A stretch of DNA of 64,000 nt from Escherichia coli (lineage in GTDB: Bacteria > Pseudomonadota > Gammaproteobacteria > Enterobacterales > Enterobacteriaceae), in NCBI RefSeq assembly GCF_003790525.1, contig NZ_CP033635.1. One strand, written 5' to 3'. The first letter of the stretch is position 1, and the number at the start of each line of letters is the position of its first letter. Of this stretch, positions 45,401 to 51,400 are shown in pieces. Made by a program: the position numbers.

Positions 45401-48400
45401 CTGGGCAAAAGTGGGAGTAAAAACAAACATTATCACTTTTGAATGGGGGGAATATCTTAATCGTATAAAGAACGGAGAGCATCAGGCTGCGTTGATGGGA
45501 TGGACAACCGCAACAGGTGATCCTGATAATTTTTTTGGTCCACTCTTTACCTGCACTTCTGCTAACGGTGGTTCTAATTCCGCGAAGTGGTGCTACAAAC
45601 CTTTCGATGAAATTATTTCTCAGGCTAAAGTAATAACTGATCAGGAAAAACGAGCAGTGCTCTATAAAAAAGCACAACAGATGATGCATGAACAAATACC
45701 AGCGGTGATGATTGCACATTCCACCATTTTTGAACCAATACGCAATGAAGTCACAGGTTATGAAATAGATCCATTTGGTAAACATATTTTTTATCAGGTT
45801 GATATAAAATAACAGGTGTAAGCTCCGTCTGTGACGTCTGGTGATAGTTGTCCAGTCTGGTAACAATAGCGTCCATCTATACAGATGGACGCGAATGATG
45901 AATTTTCAGACAACAAGATATTGATGGTTTTCGTTTTTATCTGCCCGACGCATTACGTCTAATATTCGAAGAACAATTATCTGTCTAGTTAATCGCTCAT
46001 CAGTCAGGGCTAAGTCATTTCACCATCACGATTTTTTTAACTATTACCCGAATGAGCAAAGTGAGGATGATGCCATGACGCAGGTCAGAGCGACCAGCAC
46101 CGCGACAATTAATAAAACAGGAAGGCTGCGCGTTTCAGACAGTGATGTCAACATAAACTATCAGTAACGTTAACTGCATCAGAAGCACAAGTATGGATTT
46201 TACCATTGTGCAGAACGACTTGCCCATGGGAAATAATAAATTTAATAAAAAAAGAAAGATATGGTTGCAAATATTATAATATCCCGGGCAACGATCCTGA
46301 TTTTCTCAATACATGTTTTCCTCACGTATTTGTTCTTCAAAGAGCAATCAGCATCTGTTACTGAATGGTTGTTATGAGCATTAAAAGAATAACGGGAAGT
46401 CGGTGACGTGGGGATATGTCGCGTGTTGAATTATACAAAGGGCCGACATCTTCATGGTGTCGGCCAGTCATAAGTGCCAGATATTAACCGTCAGTTACAG
46501 GGGGTAACCGCAGGAAACAGGCTACGCTCCGGGTAACGGGTTATCAATAGTTATTTATTTACTTAAATTCAGTGATTTTGTTCTGTATCATTGCGCTTTC
46601 TTACTGGTATAAATAATGATCGATTGATTTTCGCATGAGCATCAGAATTTGTCGTAATTTGAGGTCCAGGTGCTGTACATACAGGAATATGGTTCTGTCA
46701 GCGGTAGATTGCCGTTGCTGAGCAGAATGTTCAGGCTGGATGGTGAGATTACAGCTGATATTGCTGTGCTGATGGCAGAATGGTAAACGTTAAGTGCGCG
46801 TTCCCGGCAATGAAGGCAAACACGTCATGACAGCAACGCAAAATAAACCAGGAACGCGCGGTATTTTTTATCCCGAATGAAAGCGATTGTCCATATCCGG
46901 TAATAAATATTCAGCAGTATGTAAAGTGCGGTTTGCCCGGTTCTGGTGGAAGGGGCTCCAGATACACATCATCAACAAACACACACGGGAATTTATCCAC
47001 CGGGCAGCCTGCACGGTCAGCCATATCCTGCAGCGTCACACTGTGCTTCGCGACATCAATAAACACAACATCCGGTTCCATTTCATCGGGGATTCGGGTT
47101 GCGTGATGCATAATGCGATGGACTGAAGGGCAGTGACGGTAACCAAAAACACGTATACGCATGATGTACCTCCTGGTTGCAGGGTGACTGTATCATCAGA
47201 CCTTATCATGCGTTTAAAAAATGTACTGTAACTCACATTTTTTGGTAAGACGGTGGCTATTACTGCAAATGATGATGGCTCAGTTTTTATTTTTTATTCA
47301 ATATTTTCATGTTGTTATTGTTATTTTGTTTGTTCATACCCTGTGTGGTTCCCCGTTCTTTACATTCAGGCACTTCCGTTTCCTTTAACGTTTTCGTTAC
47401 TCTCTGAAGCTTGTGGTATCTGTGATTACTGATGCCTGCCGTCATACTGCGAAATACCGGATATCAGACCGTGGAGGATTCTGCCATGCAACGCTGGTTT
47501 CTGCCTTTTCTTGCGTCTCTGTTGCTGTTACAGGGTTGTGTTGCCGCTGCGCTGGTCGGTACGGCTGCTGTGGGTACTAAAGTGTCAGTGGATCCCCGAA
47601 GTGCGGGAACGCAGATTGATGATGAAATTCTGGAAGCAAGGGTCAGCCGTGCGCTGTCGAAGGACTCACAACTCAGGGGTGATGCGCGAATTATCGTCAC
47701 AGCATACCAGGGCACTGTACTGCTGACAGGGCAGGTACCAGACCGTAGTGCAGGTGAAAGAGCCCGTCAGATTGCAGATGGTGTTGAGGGGACTGTGCAG
47801 GTATGGAATGAAATAAGGACGGGAAAACCACTCCGTGCTGATAAAACAACCACTGATGCCTGGCTGACCACAAAAATCCGGGCACAGTTACTGAAGAGCA
47901 GCCGGGTGAAACTGTCAGATGTAAAGGTACTGACGGAGAATGGTGAAGTCTTTCTTATGGGGAGAGTTACAGAGAAGGAAGGACAGGCTGCTGCAGATAT
48001 CGCCAGTCGCGTGGCGGGGGTGAAACACGTCATCACCGCATTCAGTTATATACGATGAGTATGGAGAGCCCGTTCGTTCGGGCTCTGTATTTATCTTCCC
48101 CCCGTTCATCCCTGGCGTTGCCAGGTGGCACTTCCGTTCTTACAGTCAACGCGCACACGATACTGAATATCTGCTTTCTTTCCACGGGCAGTGAGATGCA
48201 CAGTGATGACATTATCACCTTTATTTACCGGCTCACGAAGATTCACCCAGACAACGGGACGCTGCTGACCGAGAATTTCCTGGTCATCTTTCCACTGAAA
48301 CACCTGTTTCTGGAGATAGTCCCGTTTGACGCTGGCTGCAACAGTCGATGCTTCCTGTCCTTCACATCGTGGAAAACTGACGGTTCTGTTTTTTTCAGCG

Positions 48401-51400
48401 GCCAGTGATGATGCACAGATACCGAAGATGAGCAGAATGGAAGAGAGTGCTTTGTTCATTTACAGGTCCTCCACAGGGGATAGTTTCATTGAGGAGTTAC
48501 ATCTTAACAACATAAAACAGCATTTCCTGTAACAATCCTCACATAACTTCTTATCCCGTCACTTCCCGTTTCACATGGGCAGCATAGCCTGTTTTTTAAC
48601 CCGTTTTTCAGTCATTTCCATAAACAAATCTTCGCTGACGATAAATCTTTTTTCTGTTTAACGATCGATTTTGTCGATCGATATGATATGTATAATTCAT
48701 TTTACCAATGAGAAATCCATCTTAAAATTGGACAAATTCATATGTCTGAAGGAAACATCAGGAGAGGTGGATTGTGAAAAAGTTACTGGCACTCACTGCG
48801 GTAGCTGCGCTTACCGGCACGTTTTCAACGCTGGCGCTGGCAGATGCGGATAAAACCGGGTTCTATATCACGGGTAAGGCTGGTGCATCTGTTATCACTC
48901 AGGATAATCAGCGTTTTAGTCAGGACTTTGGTGATGTTGTTTATAAGTATAAAGGCGGTGACAAGAGCGATACGGTTTTTGGCGCCGGCCTTGCGGTGGG
49001 ATATGACTTTTATCAGCACTACAATGTACCTGTTCGCACGGAAGTTGAATTCTATGGTCGCGGCTCTGCGAATTCCCGCTATACACTGGATACATGGGAG
49101 TCCCCGTCTGGAGATAATGGTTGGAAGGAAGACACACAAAACAGGCTCAGCGTGAATACCCTGATGGTGAGCACGTATTATGATTTCAGAAACAGCAGTG
49201 CTTTCACTCCGTGGGTATCAGCCGGACTGGGTTATGCGCGGGTACATCATAAGGCAACATACACCGATACCACCTGGCATAAATCAGGTGAAGTAAGTGA
49301 TGCTTCTTCATTACATTACTCGGGATATGATAACAATTTCGCATGGAGCCTTGGTGTTGGCGTGAAATATGATGTCACCCCGGATTTCAGTCTTGACCTT
49401 GCTTATCGCTATCTTGATGCAGGTGATTCAACCCTGACGTATAAAGACGGGCAGGATACATATAAATCCTCTGTTGATGTCAGAAGTAACGAATTTACGT
49501 TAGGCGCTACATACAGCTTCTGAATGTAATATCTGACTACACGTTGTTAAATTCAAAATCGCAGCGTGTAGTCTGATTTGATAGTTTAATACAACAGACA
49601 CGTACCTTCATGGCACTTCCTTAGCCCCCGGTTACGTTCATTTGTACCAGATGTAAGTGGCGTAAAACCATTGTCCAAATAGTGGCTCTAAAAGATTAGA
49701 TACTCATTTAGATATTATATAGCATAAGGTGATATATGGGATTTTGGGATGCTATAATGGGATTCGGTAAGCTTGCTTCTAATGCTGCTGCTGAAACGAT
49801 GAAAAAAGTCAATTTCAATGTGTGGGATAAAATAAAATCATCTCCGGTAGAAAGAATTAACGATTTTTATAACCAAAATAATACATCTGAGTATAATCGG
49901 CCAGCATACAGAGGATTGGCTATTGCTGCTCTATGTTTTAGGGGGGATTGGAGCGGGGAGCGTTTATGGCGTGAAGATCAGGAGGCTGCTAATTGGTTAA
50001 AGAATTTTAGAATAAAAATTTCACTGGATACATGTGATTCTGCAGATGAACTACGTAAAATAATCGATCGTCTTACAGAACTGAATTGATTACTGGAGGT
50101 GAAGTTATTTTTATAGGGATAAGTTGAAAATATTTATATGCCCTGTAAGTGTTATTTATATATCGAGAGCGTGAGCCAATGGTCTTTCTTCGACCACCTA
50201 CTACATTTATCTGTATGAATTGTCAATGGAGTAAAACTATTATTCATGTGAACTGTACAACAGGATTTTATGAATGTCCTGTGTGTGGAGAGAAAGTTAT
50301 TTATAAACGTAAGGCTACGATTACAGAAAATCTGTTTTCCAGAGTAATGCAATTCTTTCTTAAAAATCATAATATTTGATTGATAATAATAATTGTGTCC
50401 CGATGTCTGGCGGAGATAGTTTTTGGAAAGTGATTGTGAAATTTTTAGGTTTTTTGTTGTATGACTGATAATGAAAATATTCTCACACCATCAAAAATCA
50501 TAAAATTTCTGGATTACGCTTATGAAAAATCCATCGATGGTATTGGTATCCCGGGGATAGATACGGCACATAGTCTTGCGGAAAGTTATCTGAAAACGGG
50601 TAGTAGTTTAAAAGAACAGATAAATAGCCTTATTCGATGGCAGAATACCAAGTCTGCCACATCAGGTTTTCTTACTGGTCTTGGAGGAATTATTACATTA
50701 CCAGTAACTATACCGACCAATATTTCAAGTGTCCTTTTCATTCAGGTCAGGATGGTAGCATCTATTGCGATCATGTGTGGTCAGGATATTCGTGATGATA
50801 AAGTCAGAACTATTGTTTATACCTGTCTTGTAGGTAATGCTGCGAAAGATATTTTGAAGGAAGCAGGAATTCAGATAGGACAAAGGTTGACAACAAATGC
50901 AATTAGATGTATTAGCAAAGAAATTATTGTAAAGATAAATAAGGCTGTCGGTTTCAGACTGCTTACAAAAACAGGTGCTACTGGTGTTATTAATATGTCA
51001 AAGCTTGTTCCTGTTGTAGGAGGAATCGTTGGTGGTAGTTTTGATGCGATAACAACCAACATCGTTGGTAATTATGCCAGAGATACATTCCTGAGTTTGA
51101 TTGATAATGATTTATAAAATAAAAGTTTCATAAAAAATAGTATTTTAGGTGTGCTGACGATAGTGGATACTTTAGTATTATTGCTTCAAGTTGCATAATT
51201 TTTAACTAACATTAGGTATGAAATTATCCTGACTGGCGGGTAATACTGCCGCTCAATATGGCAAGGTTGTATTACACTGCAAGGAGAAATTCATCGCATA
51301 TCCTTACCCACAAATTTGGAGGCTATTTTATTTGCCAGTAATAATCATGTTAATCCTGAGAATATAGTTTGATATCATATGGTTAATCATTTATCTTGAT

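What the first reader, a model, noticed from the sequence alone, without database searches (positions are those of the whole stretch)
46911..49523. Island-borne paralogs of envelope proteins (DolP and YebF) next to a Tia/Hek-like outer-membrane protein
The island encodes a full-length paralog of the BON-domain lipoprotein DolP/YraP with an intact lipobox, a YebF-like secreted protein, and a ~25-kDa beta-barrel resembling Tia/Hek/Hra adhesins. Extra copies of envelope-integrity factors in an accessory region are unusual and suggest a dedicated surface-remodelling or virulence module.
Basis: partly seen in the sequence, partly recalled or inferred. Interest (0 to 1): 0.45.

Follow-up and report, generated by a model that had tools for sequence, protein, structure and literature searches.

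The report
Island copies of DolP, YebF, Tia
A rare, mostly poultry-associated E. coli genomic island carries extra, strongly diverged but intact copies of the envelope proteins DolP and YebF (plus a glutaredoxin-like gene) next to a Tia-type adhesin gene; this is real but is a reshuffled set of cargo genes from known families, not a new kind of system.

Summary
Window 46911-49523 holds four intact genes in alternating orientation.

They lie at the integrase end of a mosaic island inserted just 3' of lptG in E. coli. Core dolP and yebF are present in 5424 and 5425 of 5426 complete genomes, so the island copies are extras. Intact alleles show dN/dS of 0.1-0.2.

The block occurs at 97% identity in about 16 complete genomes, mostly from poultry. 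The "dedicated module" idea is only partly supported:
- The four genes are separate transcription units.
- grx'+dolP' behave as one 1.2-kb insertion/deletion cassette.
- yebF' and the outer-membrane protein form an older divergent pair.
- In other strains the outer-membrane protein gene is replaced by LPS-modifying genes or followed by leoCBA.
- About 33 genomes carry decayed yebF' remnants.

No donor species was found. The island DolP shares derived changes in its lipid-binding helix with DolP copies carried on E. coli integrative conjugative elements (ICEs), which suggests a DolP lineage that travels on mobile elements.

Verdict: new members of known kinds, modest interest.

The parts
46911..47162 (-). 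grx': 83-aa GrxA-like (glutaredoxin 1-like) protein with no signal peptide. The active site is CPSV in place of CPYC, so it is a monothiol form.
   Evidence: NCBIfam GrxA NF008401 scores 33 bits, below its cut-off of 84. Pfam Glutaredoxin E=0.0018. PDB 1ego/1grx glutaredoxin 1 E=1.4e-5, with the alignment showing CPYC->CPSV. dN/dS is 0.14-0.29 against other alleles, from very few differences.
47163..47485 (.). AT-rich divergent intergenic region between grx' and dolP'. It presumably holds both promoters.
   Evidence: Sequence read. No consensus sigma-70 match and no sigmaE-type match were found here.
47486..48058 (+). dolP': 190-aa dual-BON outer-membrane lipoprotein paralog. It has lipobox LLQGC with +2 Val. 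The phospholipid-binding residues W127 and L137 are kept, but the helix around them is altered.
   Evidence: NF008247 279.5 bits against a cut-off of 184. 63% identity to K-12 DolP. GGAGGA ribosome-binding site before ATG 47486. Residue mapping against Bryant et al. 2020. dN/dS 0.12-0.19.
46870..48054 (.). grx'+dolP' cassette. In yebF'-only loci (SCU-115, VTB97420v) the sequences flanking this 1.2-kb stretch are contiguous.
   Evidence: blastn shows window 46784-46869 and 48055-48596 lying 8 bp apart in L024. Sequences inspected.
48065..48086 (.). GC-rich hairpin between convergent dolP' and yebF'. It is a likely bidirectional terminator.
   Evidence: Terminator-like site with 8 pairs, 6 of them GC.
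48106..48459 (-). yebF': 117-aa YebF-family secreted protein paralog. It has a signal peptide ending SLA|AE and both conserved cysteines.
   Evidence: NF041240 117.7 bits against a cut-off of 110. 51% identity to K-12 YebF. PDB 2lqv E=1e-27, colicin M immunity protein only E=0.012. dN/dS 0.06-0.29, and 0.15 over dS 0.65 against the E7-1N7 allele.
48460..48773 (.). Divergent intergenic region between yebF' and the outer-membrane protein gene.
   Evidence: Sequence read. Two weak sigma-70-like sites face the outer-membrane protein gene, at 48658-48687 and 48701-48728. A 75%-identical remnant of 48677-48892 persists next to yebF' in loci that have lost the outer-membrane protein gene.
48774..49523 (+). 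Tia/Hra-family outer-membrane protein: 249 aa, GTG start, signal peptide ending ALA|DA, eight-stranded beta-barrel, C-terminal Phe.
   Evidence: 76% identity to PGAP-named Tia. 82-88% to Tia-like alleles linked to leoCBA. 55-58% to the Hek-named clade. AlphaFold model pLDDT 89 with 8 strands. dN/dS 0.08-0.23.
49531..49577 (.). Inverted repeat just 3' of the outer-membrane protein gene. It is a possible terminator.
   Evidence: Inverted repeat I14: 16-nt arms, 88% complementary, 15 nt apart.
49736..50089 (+). Hypothetical 117-aa protein that travels with this island end.
   Evidence: No Pfam, NCBIfam or PADLOC match. Annotated as hypothetical in AR_0085 and CM2.
50461..51117 (+). EcsC-family protein. 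It matches a candidate single-gene phage-defence family.
   Evidence: Pfam EcsC 1.4e-11. PADLOC PDC-S29 E=2.4e-86.
51517..52710 (-). P4-type tyrosine integrase of the island.
   Evidence: NF007246 integrase domain, 271 bits, E=1.3e-80, below the model's 434-bit cut-off. Annotated as a tyrosine recombinase in related genomes.
52878..52884 (.). Island/core junction, about 80 bp 3' of lptG. There is no tRNA gene here.
   Evidence: The match to SMS-3-5 begins at window 52878. Island ends from four genomes are identical up to ...GATCCTCCCC and then diverge into lptG or ula flanks. No tRNA was found in the window.

Best explanation
The region is the integrase-proximal cargo end of a mosaic E. coli genomic island. 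It carries four independently transcribed genes, each a diverged extra copy or variant of a known family.

(1) The outer-membrane protein is a Tia-proximal member of the Hra/Tia/Hek adhesin family. It is exported by Sec and folded by BAM into an eight-stranded barrel with long surface hairpins. By analogy with Tia and Hek, it most likely mediates adhesion to host cells, and possibly invasion or aggregation.

(2) DolP' is made as a lipoprotein and sorted by Lol to the inner leaflet of the outer membrane. It keeps W127 and L137 of the BON2 helix, so it most likely binds anionic phospholipid and supplies DolP-like support of outer-membrane and BAM integrity. Its altered helix may change its localisation or partners.

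(3) YebF' is Sec-exported, disulfide-bonded, and probably released through OmpF/OmpC as YebF is.

(4) Grx' is a cytoplasmic monothiol glutaredoxin-like protein.

Shown here: the protein identities, their intactness, their extra-copy status, purifying selection, and the mosaic history. That history comprises a grx'+dolP' cassette, an older divergent yebF'/outer-membrane protein pair, and exchange of the outer-membrane protein gene for LPS-modifying genes or addition of leoCBA.

Inferred: all biochemical roles. Also inferred is the view that the genes are a loosely linked collection of envelope cargo assembled by recombination, rather than one machine.
For: - Family assignments above curated cut-offs for DolP and YebF.
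- 63%, 51% and 76% identity to K-12 DolP, K-12 YebF and Tia.
- Eight-strand AlphaFold model for the outer-membrane protein, pLDDT 89.
- Lipobox, W127, L137, T130, K131, R133 and Q135 are conserved in DolP'.
- Both YebF cysteines are conserved.
- The core copies are nearly universal: 5424 and 5425 of 5426 genomes.
- dN/dS is 0.06-0.29 for all four genes, with dS of 0.01-0.09 between alleles (0.06-0.09 for dolP' and the outer-membrane protein gene), and 0.15 for yebF' over dS 0.65.
- The genes alternate in orientation, with a hairpin between dolP' and yebF' and another after the outer-membrane protein gene.
- Mosaicism: GF60 has grx'-IS21-dolP'-yebF'-OMP-leoCBA-int. LH50-c and Ch1 have grx'-dolP'-yebF' followed by deacetylase-GT4-cptA-lpxM', with a remnant of the outer-membrane protein gene's 5' end. 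L017 has a yebF' variant beside an outer-membrane protein of the Hek-type clade, without dolP'. L024 and L025 lack exactly the grx'+dolP' cassette.
- The same island end sits at two different chromosomal sites, lptG-3' and ulaD/ulaE.
Against: - No expression or functional data exist for any of the four genes.
- No sigma-70 or sigmaE consensus promoter was found upstream of dolP'.
- DolP' has 22 changes at positions invariant in 12 core DolPs, including G120D, E121K, S123T, T126A and S134A in the lipid-binding helix. DolP-like function is therefore not guaranteed.
- YebF' only just passes the YebF cut-off (117.7 against 110).
- The repeated co-travel of dolP' and yebF' with envelope genes could reflect a functional link that this analysis cannot see.
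- The genome the window comes from is not among the complete genomes searched. Its own core dolP and yebF copies were inferred, not observed.
Confidence: 0.62

Rival explanations
1. Dedicated co-functional envelope module. DolP' and/or YebF' specifically assist or regulate the island's surface cargo. For example, DolP' could buffer BAM and outer-membrane stress caused by high-level production of the Tia-like barrel, or by altered LPS. YebF' could act at OmpF/OmpC to adjust the surface.
For: dolP' and yebF' stay adjacent, convergent and sharing a hairpin, in all four island variants that have dolP'. Their neighbours are always envelope genes: a Tia-family outer-membrane protein, leoCBA, or an lpxM paralog, cptA, GT4 and a deacetylase. 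The yebF'/outer-membrane protein divergent pairing recurs with an outer-membrane protein from the other major clade of the family. All genes are under purifying selection. DolP is known to support BamA folding under envelope stress (Ranava et al. 2021, PMC8081527, listed).
Against: The genes are separate transcription units in alternating orientation. The closest outer-membrane protein alleles (82-88%) function in islands with neither gene. grx'+dolP' is a separable indel cassette. yebF' is decayed in about 33 genomes. ICE-borne DolP relatives travel without yebF' or a Tia-family protein.
Confidence: 0.2
2. Neutral hitch-hikers. dolP', yebF' and grx' are functionless xenologs picked up from an unsampled relative and carried along with the selected adhesin gene.
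For: The block is rare: about 16 of 5426 complete genomes. Many yebF' copies elsewhere are truncated, frameshifted or contain stops. IS elements insert within the block: IS21 between grx' and dolP' in GF60 and inside the outer-membrane protein gene in CFSAN061770.
Against: All intact alleles show dN/dS of 0.1-0.2 with appreciable dS, and yebF' keeps 0.15 over dS 0.65. The lipobox, W127, L137 and both YebF cysteines are retained. The reading frames are intact in about 16 genomes whose alleles differ by dS 0.06-0.09.
Confidence: 0.1
3. Protection or immunity function. YebF' could act like its structural relative Cmi, the colicin M immunity protein, or could plug OmpF/OmpC against colicins or phages. 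DolP' could protect BAM or the outer membrane against an attacking toxin.
For: YebF and Cmi share a fold, and YebF' has a weak match to Cmi (E=0.012). The adjacent EcsC-family gene matches the phage-defence candidate PDC-S29, so this island end does carry defence-type cargo.
Against: YebF' matches YebF far better than Cmi (1e-27 against 0.012) and passes the NCBIfam model built to exclude Cmi. It has a cleavable signal peptide, not Cmi's membrane anchor (the Cmi anchor is from the author's knowledge). PADLOC gives no hit for DolP', YebF', Grx' or the outer-membrane protein. No toxin gene lies next to them.
Confidence: 0.06
4. Displaced core genes: these are the only dolP and yebF copies in this genome.
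For: None. The rest of the window's genome cannot be seen.
Against: Core diaA-dolP and yebF-yebG occur at 95% identity or more in 5424 and 5425 of 5426 complete genomes. The window's core flank is 100% identical to ordinary E. coli. The island copies are only 63% and 51% identical to the core proteins and have no core neighbours such as diaA or yebG.
Confidence: 0.01

Closest known systems
Tia (ETEC invasin/adhesin) and the Hra family (Hra1/Hek, Hra2, Hes) of E. coli
   Same: About 25 kDa, with a signal peptide, an eight-stranded barrel and a C-terminal Phe. It is 76-78% identical to PGAP-named Tia and 82-88% identical to Tia-like alleles next to leoCBA. It is island-borne, like tia, hek and hes (PMC5539235).
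   Different: It is a distinct allele cluster (P0001, 250 members, generic names only). It is 55-58% identical to the Hek-named clade. In the window it is not followed by leoCBA. Its adhesion, invasion and heparin-binding phenotypes are untested.
DolP (YraP, b3150), the dual-BON outer-membrane lipoprotein of E. coli
   Same: Same length, same lipobox and same two-BON layout. It passes the DolP equivalog model. W127, L137, T130, K131, R133 and Q135 of the phospholipid-binding helix are kept.
   Different: It is 61-64% identical to every Enterobacteriaceae core DolP, whereas those are 82-95% identical to each other. It has 22 changes at core-invariant positions, several of them in the BON2 alpha1 helix. 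It is not in the diaA-dolP operon and has no sigmaE-type promoter match. It is island-borne and rare.
ICE-borne DolP copies of E. coli (DUF465-dolP pair on TraI_2/UvrD/ArdC/PilI-type integrative conjugative elements)
   Same: They are also extra DolP copies on mobile elements. They are 65-69% identical to the island DolP and group with it in a neighbour-joining tree. They share five derived substitutions at core-invariant positions: K65R, K95R, T126A, I128L and V132I.
   Different: They ride on a different element type with different neighbours: DUF465, and no yebF', grx' or Tia-family gene. They are closer to core DolP (66-76%). Their host range differs: 27 of 5426 genomes, many bovine or STEC.
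YebF (b1847) secreted protein, and its fold relative Cmi (colicin M immunity protein)
   Same: Same length, signal peptide and two cysteines. It is 51% identical to K-12 YebF and passes the 'YebF_not_Cmi' model.
   Different: It is a separate lineage found only in E. coli accessory DNA: 51 of 5426 genomes, most copies decayed. It is not next to yebG. It has only a marginal match to Cmi.
Tia pathogenicity island of ETEC (tia-leoCBA) and related P4-integrase islands
   Same: The GF60 variant of this very block continues into leoC-leoB-leoA and ends at the same type of integrase. The closest outer-membrane protein alleles lie in tia-leoCBA loci.
   Different: The window's island lacks leoCBA. It is inserted 3' of lptG (elsewhere between ulaD and ulaE) rather than at a tRNA gene, and it carries grx'-dolP'-yebF' upstream of the outer-membrane protein gene. 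That the ETEC island sits at selC is from the author's knowledge and was not checked here.

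Membership tests
DolP/YraP (NCBIfam NF008247) | Whole-protein score above the curated equivalog cut-off | tested here: met
   279.5 bits against a cut-off of 184. The OsmY model scores only 64 bits.
DolP/YraP | Lipoprotein signal peptide with a lipobox and an outer-membrane sorting residue at +2 | tested here: met
   LLLQGC-V, identical to K-12. Read directly from the sequence.
DolP/YraP | Two BON domains, with W127 and L137 in an extended BON2 alpha1 helix (the phospholipid-binding determinants, Bryant et al. 2020) | tested here: met
   W127, L137, T130, K131, R133 and Q135 are conserved. G120D, E121K, S123T, N124T, T126A and S134A differ.
DolP/YraP | Binds PG/cardiolipin, localises to the division site, and maintains outer-membrane barrier and BAM function | not testable with these tools
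   Requires complementation of a dolP deletion, lipid-binding assays and microscopy.
DolP/YraP | Core genomic context: diaA-dolP operon with sigmaE control | tested here: not met
   The gene is flanked by grx' and yebF' on an island. No sigmaE-type motif lies upstream. It is a paralog or xenolog, not the ortholog.
YebF (NCBIfam NF041240, Pfam PF13995) | Score above the curated cut-off, and a better match to YebF than to Cmi | tested here: met
   117.7 bits against a cut-off of 110. PDB YebF 1e-27 against Cmi 0.012.
YebF | Cleavable signal peptide and the two conserved disulfide cysteines | tested here: met
   Signal peptide ...ASSLA|AEKN. Cys32 and Cys106 align with the invariant family cysteines.
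YebF | Secretion to the medium through OmpF/OmpC | not testable with these tools
   Requires a secretion assay.
Hra/Tia/Hek family of outer-membrane adhesins | High sequence identity to characterised members | tested here: met
   76-78% to PGAP-named Tia clusters and 55-58% to Hek-named clusters. Named members of the family share 64-90% identity (PMC5539235).
Hra/Tia/Hek family | An eight-stranded beta-barrel of about 25 kDa with a signal peptide and a C-terminal aromatic residue | tested here: met
   AlphaFold model pLDDT 89 with eight long strands. Pfam OMP_b-brl 7.6e-17. The sequence ends ...TYSF.
Hra/Tia/Hek family | Confers adhesion, invasion, haemagglutination or autoaggregation; binds heparan sulfate | not testable with these tools
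   Requires cell-culture and binding assays.
GrxA (glutaredoxin 1) | Curated score and a CPYC dithiol active site | tested here: not met
   33 bits against a cut-off of 84. The active site is CPSV. It is glutaredoxin-like in fold only.
Operon or single-unit 'module' | Co-orientation and co-transcription of the genes, with linkage conserved across divergent relatives | tested here: not met
   The genes alternate in strand, with hairpins between them. Linkage breaks in several lineages.

The most novel reading that the evidence does not exclude
E. coli mobile elements carry their own DolP lineage. The island DolP' and the ICE-borne DolP copies descend from a common mobile ancestor with a remodelled BON2 lipid-binding helix (T126A, I128L, V132I around the conserved W127). 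Elements keep this lineage because it changes how the host outer membrane or BAM copes with element-encoded surface structures such as adhesins, pili or altered LPS, or because it protects the envelope against an external attack. In the same way, YebF' would be an element-specific variant acting at the porins.
Probability: 0.15. Interest if true: 0.55.

Novelty: new member of a known kind. Interest (0 to 1): 0.3.

Why it matters
DolP and YebF are normally discussed as single-copy core envelope proteins. A small fraction of E. coli carry extra, selected and strongly diverged copies on islands and ICEs: about 0.3% have this island type, about 0.5% have an ICE-borne DolP, and 0.9% have any yebF' sequence. 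These natural variants could help dissect DolP's lipid-binding helix and YebF's still unclear function. The outer-membrane protein is an uncharacterised Tia-proximal allele found mainly in poultry-associated strains, so it is a candidate colonisation factor for avian or food-chain E. coli. None of this overturns current understanding. It extends known families and illustrates modular reshuffling of envelope cargo at the integrase end of E. coli islands.

Tried and rejected
- **Donor search.** The 5.8-billion-cluster search for DolP' found only E. coli relatives at 97%, then E. coli ICE copies at 67-70%, then all core DolPs at 61-66%. The exhaustive representative search for YebF' found nothing closer than the core YebF cluster at about 55%. 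No donor genus was identified.
- **Plasmids.** tblastn of DolP' against PLSDB returned essentially mislabelled chromosomes and core-like copies. Plasmid carriage was rejected.
- **sigmaE promoter.** None was found upstream of dolP', and window-wide matches were at or below chance.
- **Sigma-70 promoters.** Counts in 46000-51500 were no higher than in shuffled sequence.
- **Defence systems.** PADLOC gave no hit for the four genes; only the neighbouring EcsC protein matched.
- **Rfam.** There is no RNA family in the module.
- **Repeats.** Only short repeats of chance level were found around the cassette. I considered the 18-nt direct repeat at 46818/48023 as a deletion substrate, but its 1205-nt spacing does not match the 1186-nt indel.
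- **ICE 84-aa gene.** It is unrelated to grx'.
- **Literature.** No paper links yebF or dolP with tia islands, or describes an lptG-3' island site. A first DolP search was swamped by 'dolphin' hits. The Hra2 paper (PMC3165684) is not held, so identity with Hra2 could not be checked.
- **Not run.** The genome contigs and metagenome scans, because the protein searches already covered those sources.

Full report
**1. What is there**

The window is E. coli. Its right-hand part (lptG, lptF, pepA, holC, valS, 52962-60354) is 100% identical to ordinary strains such as SMS-3-5. To the left lies low-GC accessory DNA. It ends in a P4-type tyrosine integrase at 51517-52710 (NF007246, E=1.3e-80). No tRNA gene is present anywhere in the window.

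The flagged interval, 46911-49523, contains four intact genes in alternating orientation:
- 46911-47162 (-), 83 aa
- 47486-48058 (+), 190 aa
- 48106-48459 (-), 117 aa
- 48774-49523 (+), 249 aa

The mechanical ORF for the second gene starts at 47432. However, a GGAGGA ribosome-binding site precedes ATG 47486, and homology with DolP starts there.

**2. Check of the three named proteins**

DolP paralog:
- It scores 279.5 bits on the NCBIfam DolP equivalog model, against a cut-off of 184.
- It is 63% identical to K-12 DolP over 185 residues.
- It has the same lipobox and +2 residue as K-12, LLLQGC-V.
- It keeps the residues that Bryant et al. (PMC7806268) found critical for anionic-phospholipid binding and function, W127 and L137. 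It also keeps T130, K131, R133 and Q135.
- G120, E121, S123, N124, T126 and S134 of the same helix are changed.

YebF paralog:
- It passes the 'YebF_not_Cmi' model, 117.7 bits against 110.
- It is 51% identical to K-12 YebF.
- It matches the YebF NMR structure sequence at E=1e-27. The match to the fold-related colicin M immunity protein is only E=0.012.
- It has a cleavable signal peptide and both family-invariant cysteines.

Outer-membrane protein:
- It is 76% identical to a PGAP-named Tia and 77-78% identical to the two large Tia-named clusters.
- It is 82-88% identical to Tia-like alleles and 55-58% identical to Hek-named clusters.
- An AlphaFold model built on 44 family sequences has mean pLDDT 89 and eight long strands.

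It is a GrxA-like protein whose CPYC active site has become CPSV.

**3. Extra copies, not displaced genes**

The K-12 diaA-dolP segment is present at 95% identity or more in 5424 of 5426 complete E. coli genomes. The yebF-yebG segment is present in 5425. At most two or three genomes lack a core copy, so nearly all of the roughly 16 island carriers must have both. The window's own genome is not among the complete genomes, so this is an inference for this strain.

**4. Distribution**

- The 2.8-kb block occurs at about 97% identity and full length in 14-15 complete genomes, plus a few partial versions.
- Of the 15 carriers, about ten or eleven are from chicken or chicken meat, two from a black kite and one from a human.
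- Any yebF'-like DNA is present in 51 of 5426 genomes.
- Named relatives of DolP' and YebF' in the 5.8-billion-cluster protein collection are all E. coli.
- An exhaustive HMMER scan of 1.84 billion representatives found only 34 YebF-family clusters. None is closer to YebF' than the core YebF cluster at about 55%.
- No donor organism can be named.

**5. Are the genes alive?**

Pairwise Nei-Gojobori estimates between the window and alleles from AR_0085, CM2, GF60, LH50-c and Ch1:

| Gene | dN/dS |
|---|---|
| dolP' | 0.12-0.19 |
| yebF' | 0.06-0.29 |
| outer-membrane protein | 0.08-0.23 |
| grx' | 0.14-0.29 (very few differences) |

- dS between the window's allele and the others is 0.01-0.09 (0.06-0.09 for dolP' and the outer-membrane protein gene).
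- Against the more distant E7-1N7 yebF' allele, dS is 0.65 and dN/dS is 0.15.
- The intact copies are under purifying selection and have been in the E. coli gene pool for some time.

**6. Is it a module?**

Evidence for a shared theme:
- In GF60 the order is pepT, ABC binding protein, grx', IS21, dolP', yebF', outer-membrane protein, leoC-leoB-leoA ... integrase. That is, the block is fused to the classical tia-leo arrangement.
- In LH50-c and Ch1 the same DoxX-grx'-dolP'-yebF' stretch is followed by a polysaccharide deacetylase, a GT4 glycosyltransferase, a cptA pseudogene, an lpxM paralog, a TPR protein and the integrase. These are all LPS or envelope genes.

Evidence against a single functional unit:
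- (a) The genes alternate in strand. A GC-rich hairpin lies between convergent dolP' and yebF', and another follows the outer-membrane protein gene.
- (b) The closest outer-membrane protein alleles (82-88%) sit in tia-leoCBA loci with neither dolP' nor yebF'.
- (c) In SCU-115 and VTB97420v, the DNA on either side of window 46870-48054 is contiguous. So grx'+dolP' form one 1.2-kb insertion/deletion cassette that ends exactly at the dolP' stop codon.
- (d) A yebF' variant lies divergent from an outer-membrane protein of the Hek-type clade, without dolP'. LH50-c-type loci keep a 75%-identical remnant of the outer-membrane protein gene's upstream region and first ~120 nt next to yebF'. The yebF'/outer-membrane protein pair is therefore the older arrangement, and the LPS gene set later displaced the outer-membrane protein gene.
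- (e) About 33 genomes carry yebF' remnants that are truncated or contain stops, next to decayed deacetylase-GT4-PEtN-transferase genes. The L017 variant is frameshifted before the second cysteine.
- (f) Identities within the outer-membrane protein family are not tree-like, which is typical of recombining alleles.

The best reading is a recombination-assembled collection of envelope cargo at the integrase end of a mosaic island. A functional interaction remains possible but unshown. An example would be DolP' buffering BAM stress caused by the barrel protein or by altered LPS (see Ranava et al. 2021, PMC8081527, listed).

**7. An unexpected relationship**

- DolP' is 61-64% identical to the core DolP of every Enterobacteriaceae genus sampled. 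Those core proteins are 82-95% identical to one another and about 72% identical to Serratia.
- The only proteins closer to DolP' (65-69%) are other E. coli 'extra' DolPs.
- Those extra DolPs sit, always after a DUF465 gene, on integrative conjugative elements with a TraI_2 relaxase, UvrD helicase, ArdC, PilI and an integrase, next to yqgA/speC. They occur in 27 of 5426 complete genomes, many bovine or STEC.
- A neighbour-joining tree groups the island and ICE proteins together.
- They share five derived substitutions at positions invariant in 12 core DolPs: K65R, K95R, T126A, I128L and V132I. Three of these flank W127 in the lipid-binding helix.
- Long-branch attraction is not excluded.
- This suggests a DolP lineage that lives on mobile elements. 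I found no description of this in the searchable literature.

**8. Mechanism: committed view**

Shown: the protein identities, export signals, conserved key residues, selection and mosaic history.

Inferred:
- The outer-membrane protein is a surface adhesin (possibly also an invasin or aggregation factor) acting like Tia or Hek.
- DolP' is an outer-membrane inner-leaflet lipoprotein that binds anionic phospholipid and supplies DolP-like envelope support, possibly with altered targeting.
- YebF' is a disulfide-bonded protein secreted through OmpF/OmpC.
- Grx' is a cytoplasmic monothiol glutaredoxin-like protein.

Confidence that the region is such a cargo set rather than a dedicated machine is about 0.6.

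**9. Novelty and score**

All four genes belong to known families, and RefSeq already annotates them as dolP, yebF and 'outer membrane protein'. What is new is descriptive:
- a distinct Tia-proximal allele cluster;
- island and ICE DolP lineages;
- an accessory YebF lineage;
- the modular history of the block.

Classification: new members of known kinds. Interest is about 0.3.

The most novel reading not excluded is a mobile-element-specific DolP or YebF function in envelope adaptation or protection. I give it a probability of about 0.15 and an interest of about 0.55 if true.

Noticed in passing
L005-L008 (E. coli contigs); DolP genes at L005:8001-8576 and L008:8001-8576: A second kind of extra DolP (66-76% identical to core, 65-69% to the island copy) is carried on E. 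coli integrative conjugative elements. It always follows a 75-aa DUF465 gene. The elements have a TraI_2 relaxase, UvrD helicase, ArdC and PilI. It is present in 27 of 5426 complete genomes and shares five derived substitutions with the island DolP.
   Followed up: partly
window 50461-51117 (+): The EcsC-family protein next to the integrase matches the PADLOC phage-defence candidate PDC-S29 at E=2.4e-86. It is preceded by an unannotated 117-aa ORF (49736-50089) and a 76-aa ORF with two CxxC motifs (50149-50379).
   Followed up: partly
window 52700-52970; L001:17900-18150; L023:15545-15730; L014:17095-17360: The integrase end of the island is identical in four genomes up to ...GATCCTCCCC and then runs into different core DNA: 3' of lptG in the window and CM2, and between ulaD and ulaE in AR_0085 and CFSAN061770. 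This P4-type integrase therefore uses at least two non-tRNA sites, both beginning with a CCCC...GGGG-type motif.
   Followed up: partly
L021:9506-14299 and L022:9267-14060 (LH50-c, Ch1): In sister islands the Tia-like gene is replaced by a polysaccharide deacetylase, a GT4 glycosyltransferase, a cptA pseudogene and an extra lpxM (lipid A myristoyltransferase) paralog. This is an accessory LPS-modification set next to dolP'-yebF'.
   Followed up: no
window 46911-47162 (-): A GrxA-like gene with CPSV in place of the CPYC active site forms an indel cassette with dolP'. In CM2 and LH50-c the same gene is annotated as 97 aa, and a window-length extraction there gives a different C-terminal sequence (not aligned in register).
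   Followed up: partly
window 34000-37400 and 38707-41487: Going by its 99.6% match to LH50-c, the island also carries a DsbD-family protein-disulfide reductase (interrupted in LH50-c), a disulfide oxidoreductase fragment, a TonB-dependent receptor with a DUF4198 partner, and a TRAP transporter. These are further envelope and periplasm-related cargo.
   Followed up: no
window 55969-56163 (-): An Rfam match to Ysr276 (Yersinia sRNA 276, antisense type) at 182.9 bits lies inside pepA. An ALIL frameshifting pseudoknot of an IS3 element lies at 27512-27628.
   Followed up: no
window 48662-48680: A perfect 7-bp inverted repeat, CGATCGA-TTTTG-TCGATCG, lies about 95 bp upstream of the outer-membrane protein start codon. 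It may be an operator, but it is short enough to occur by chance.
   Followed up: no
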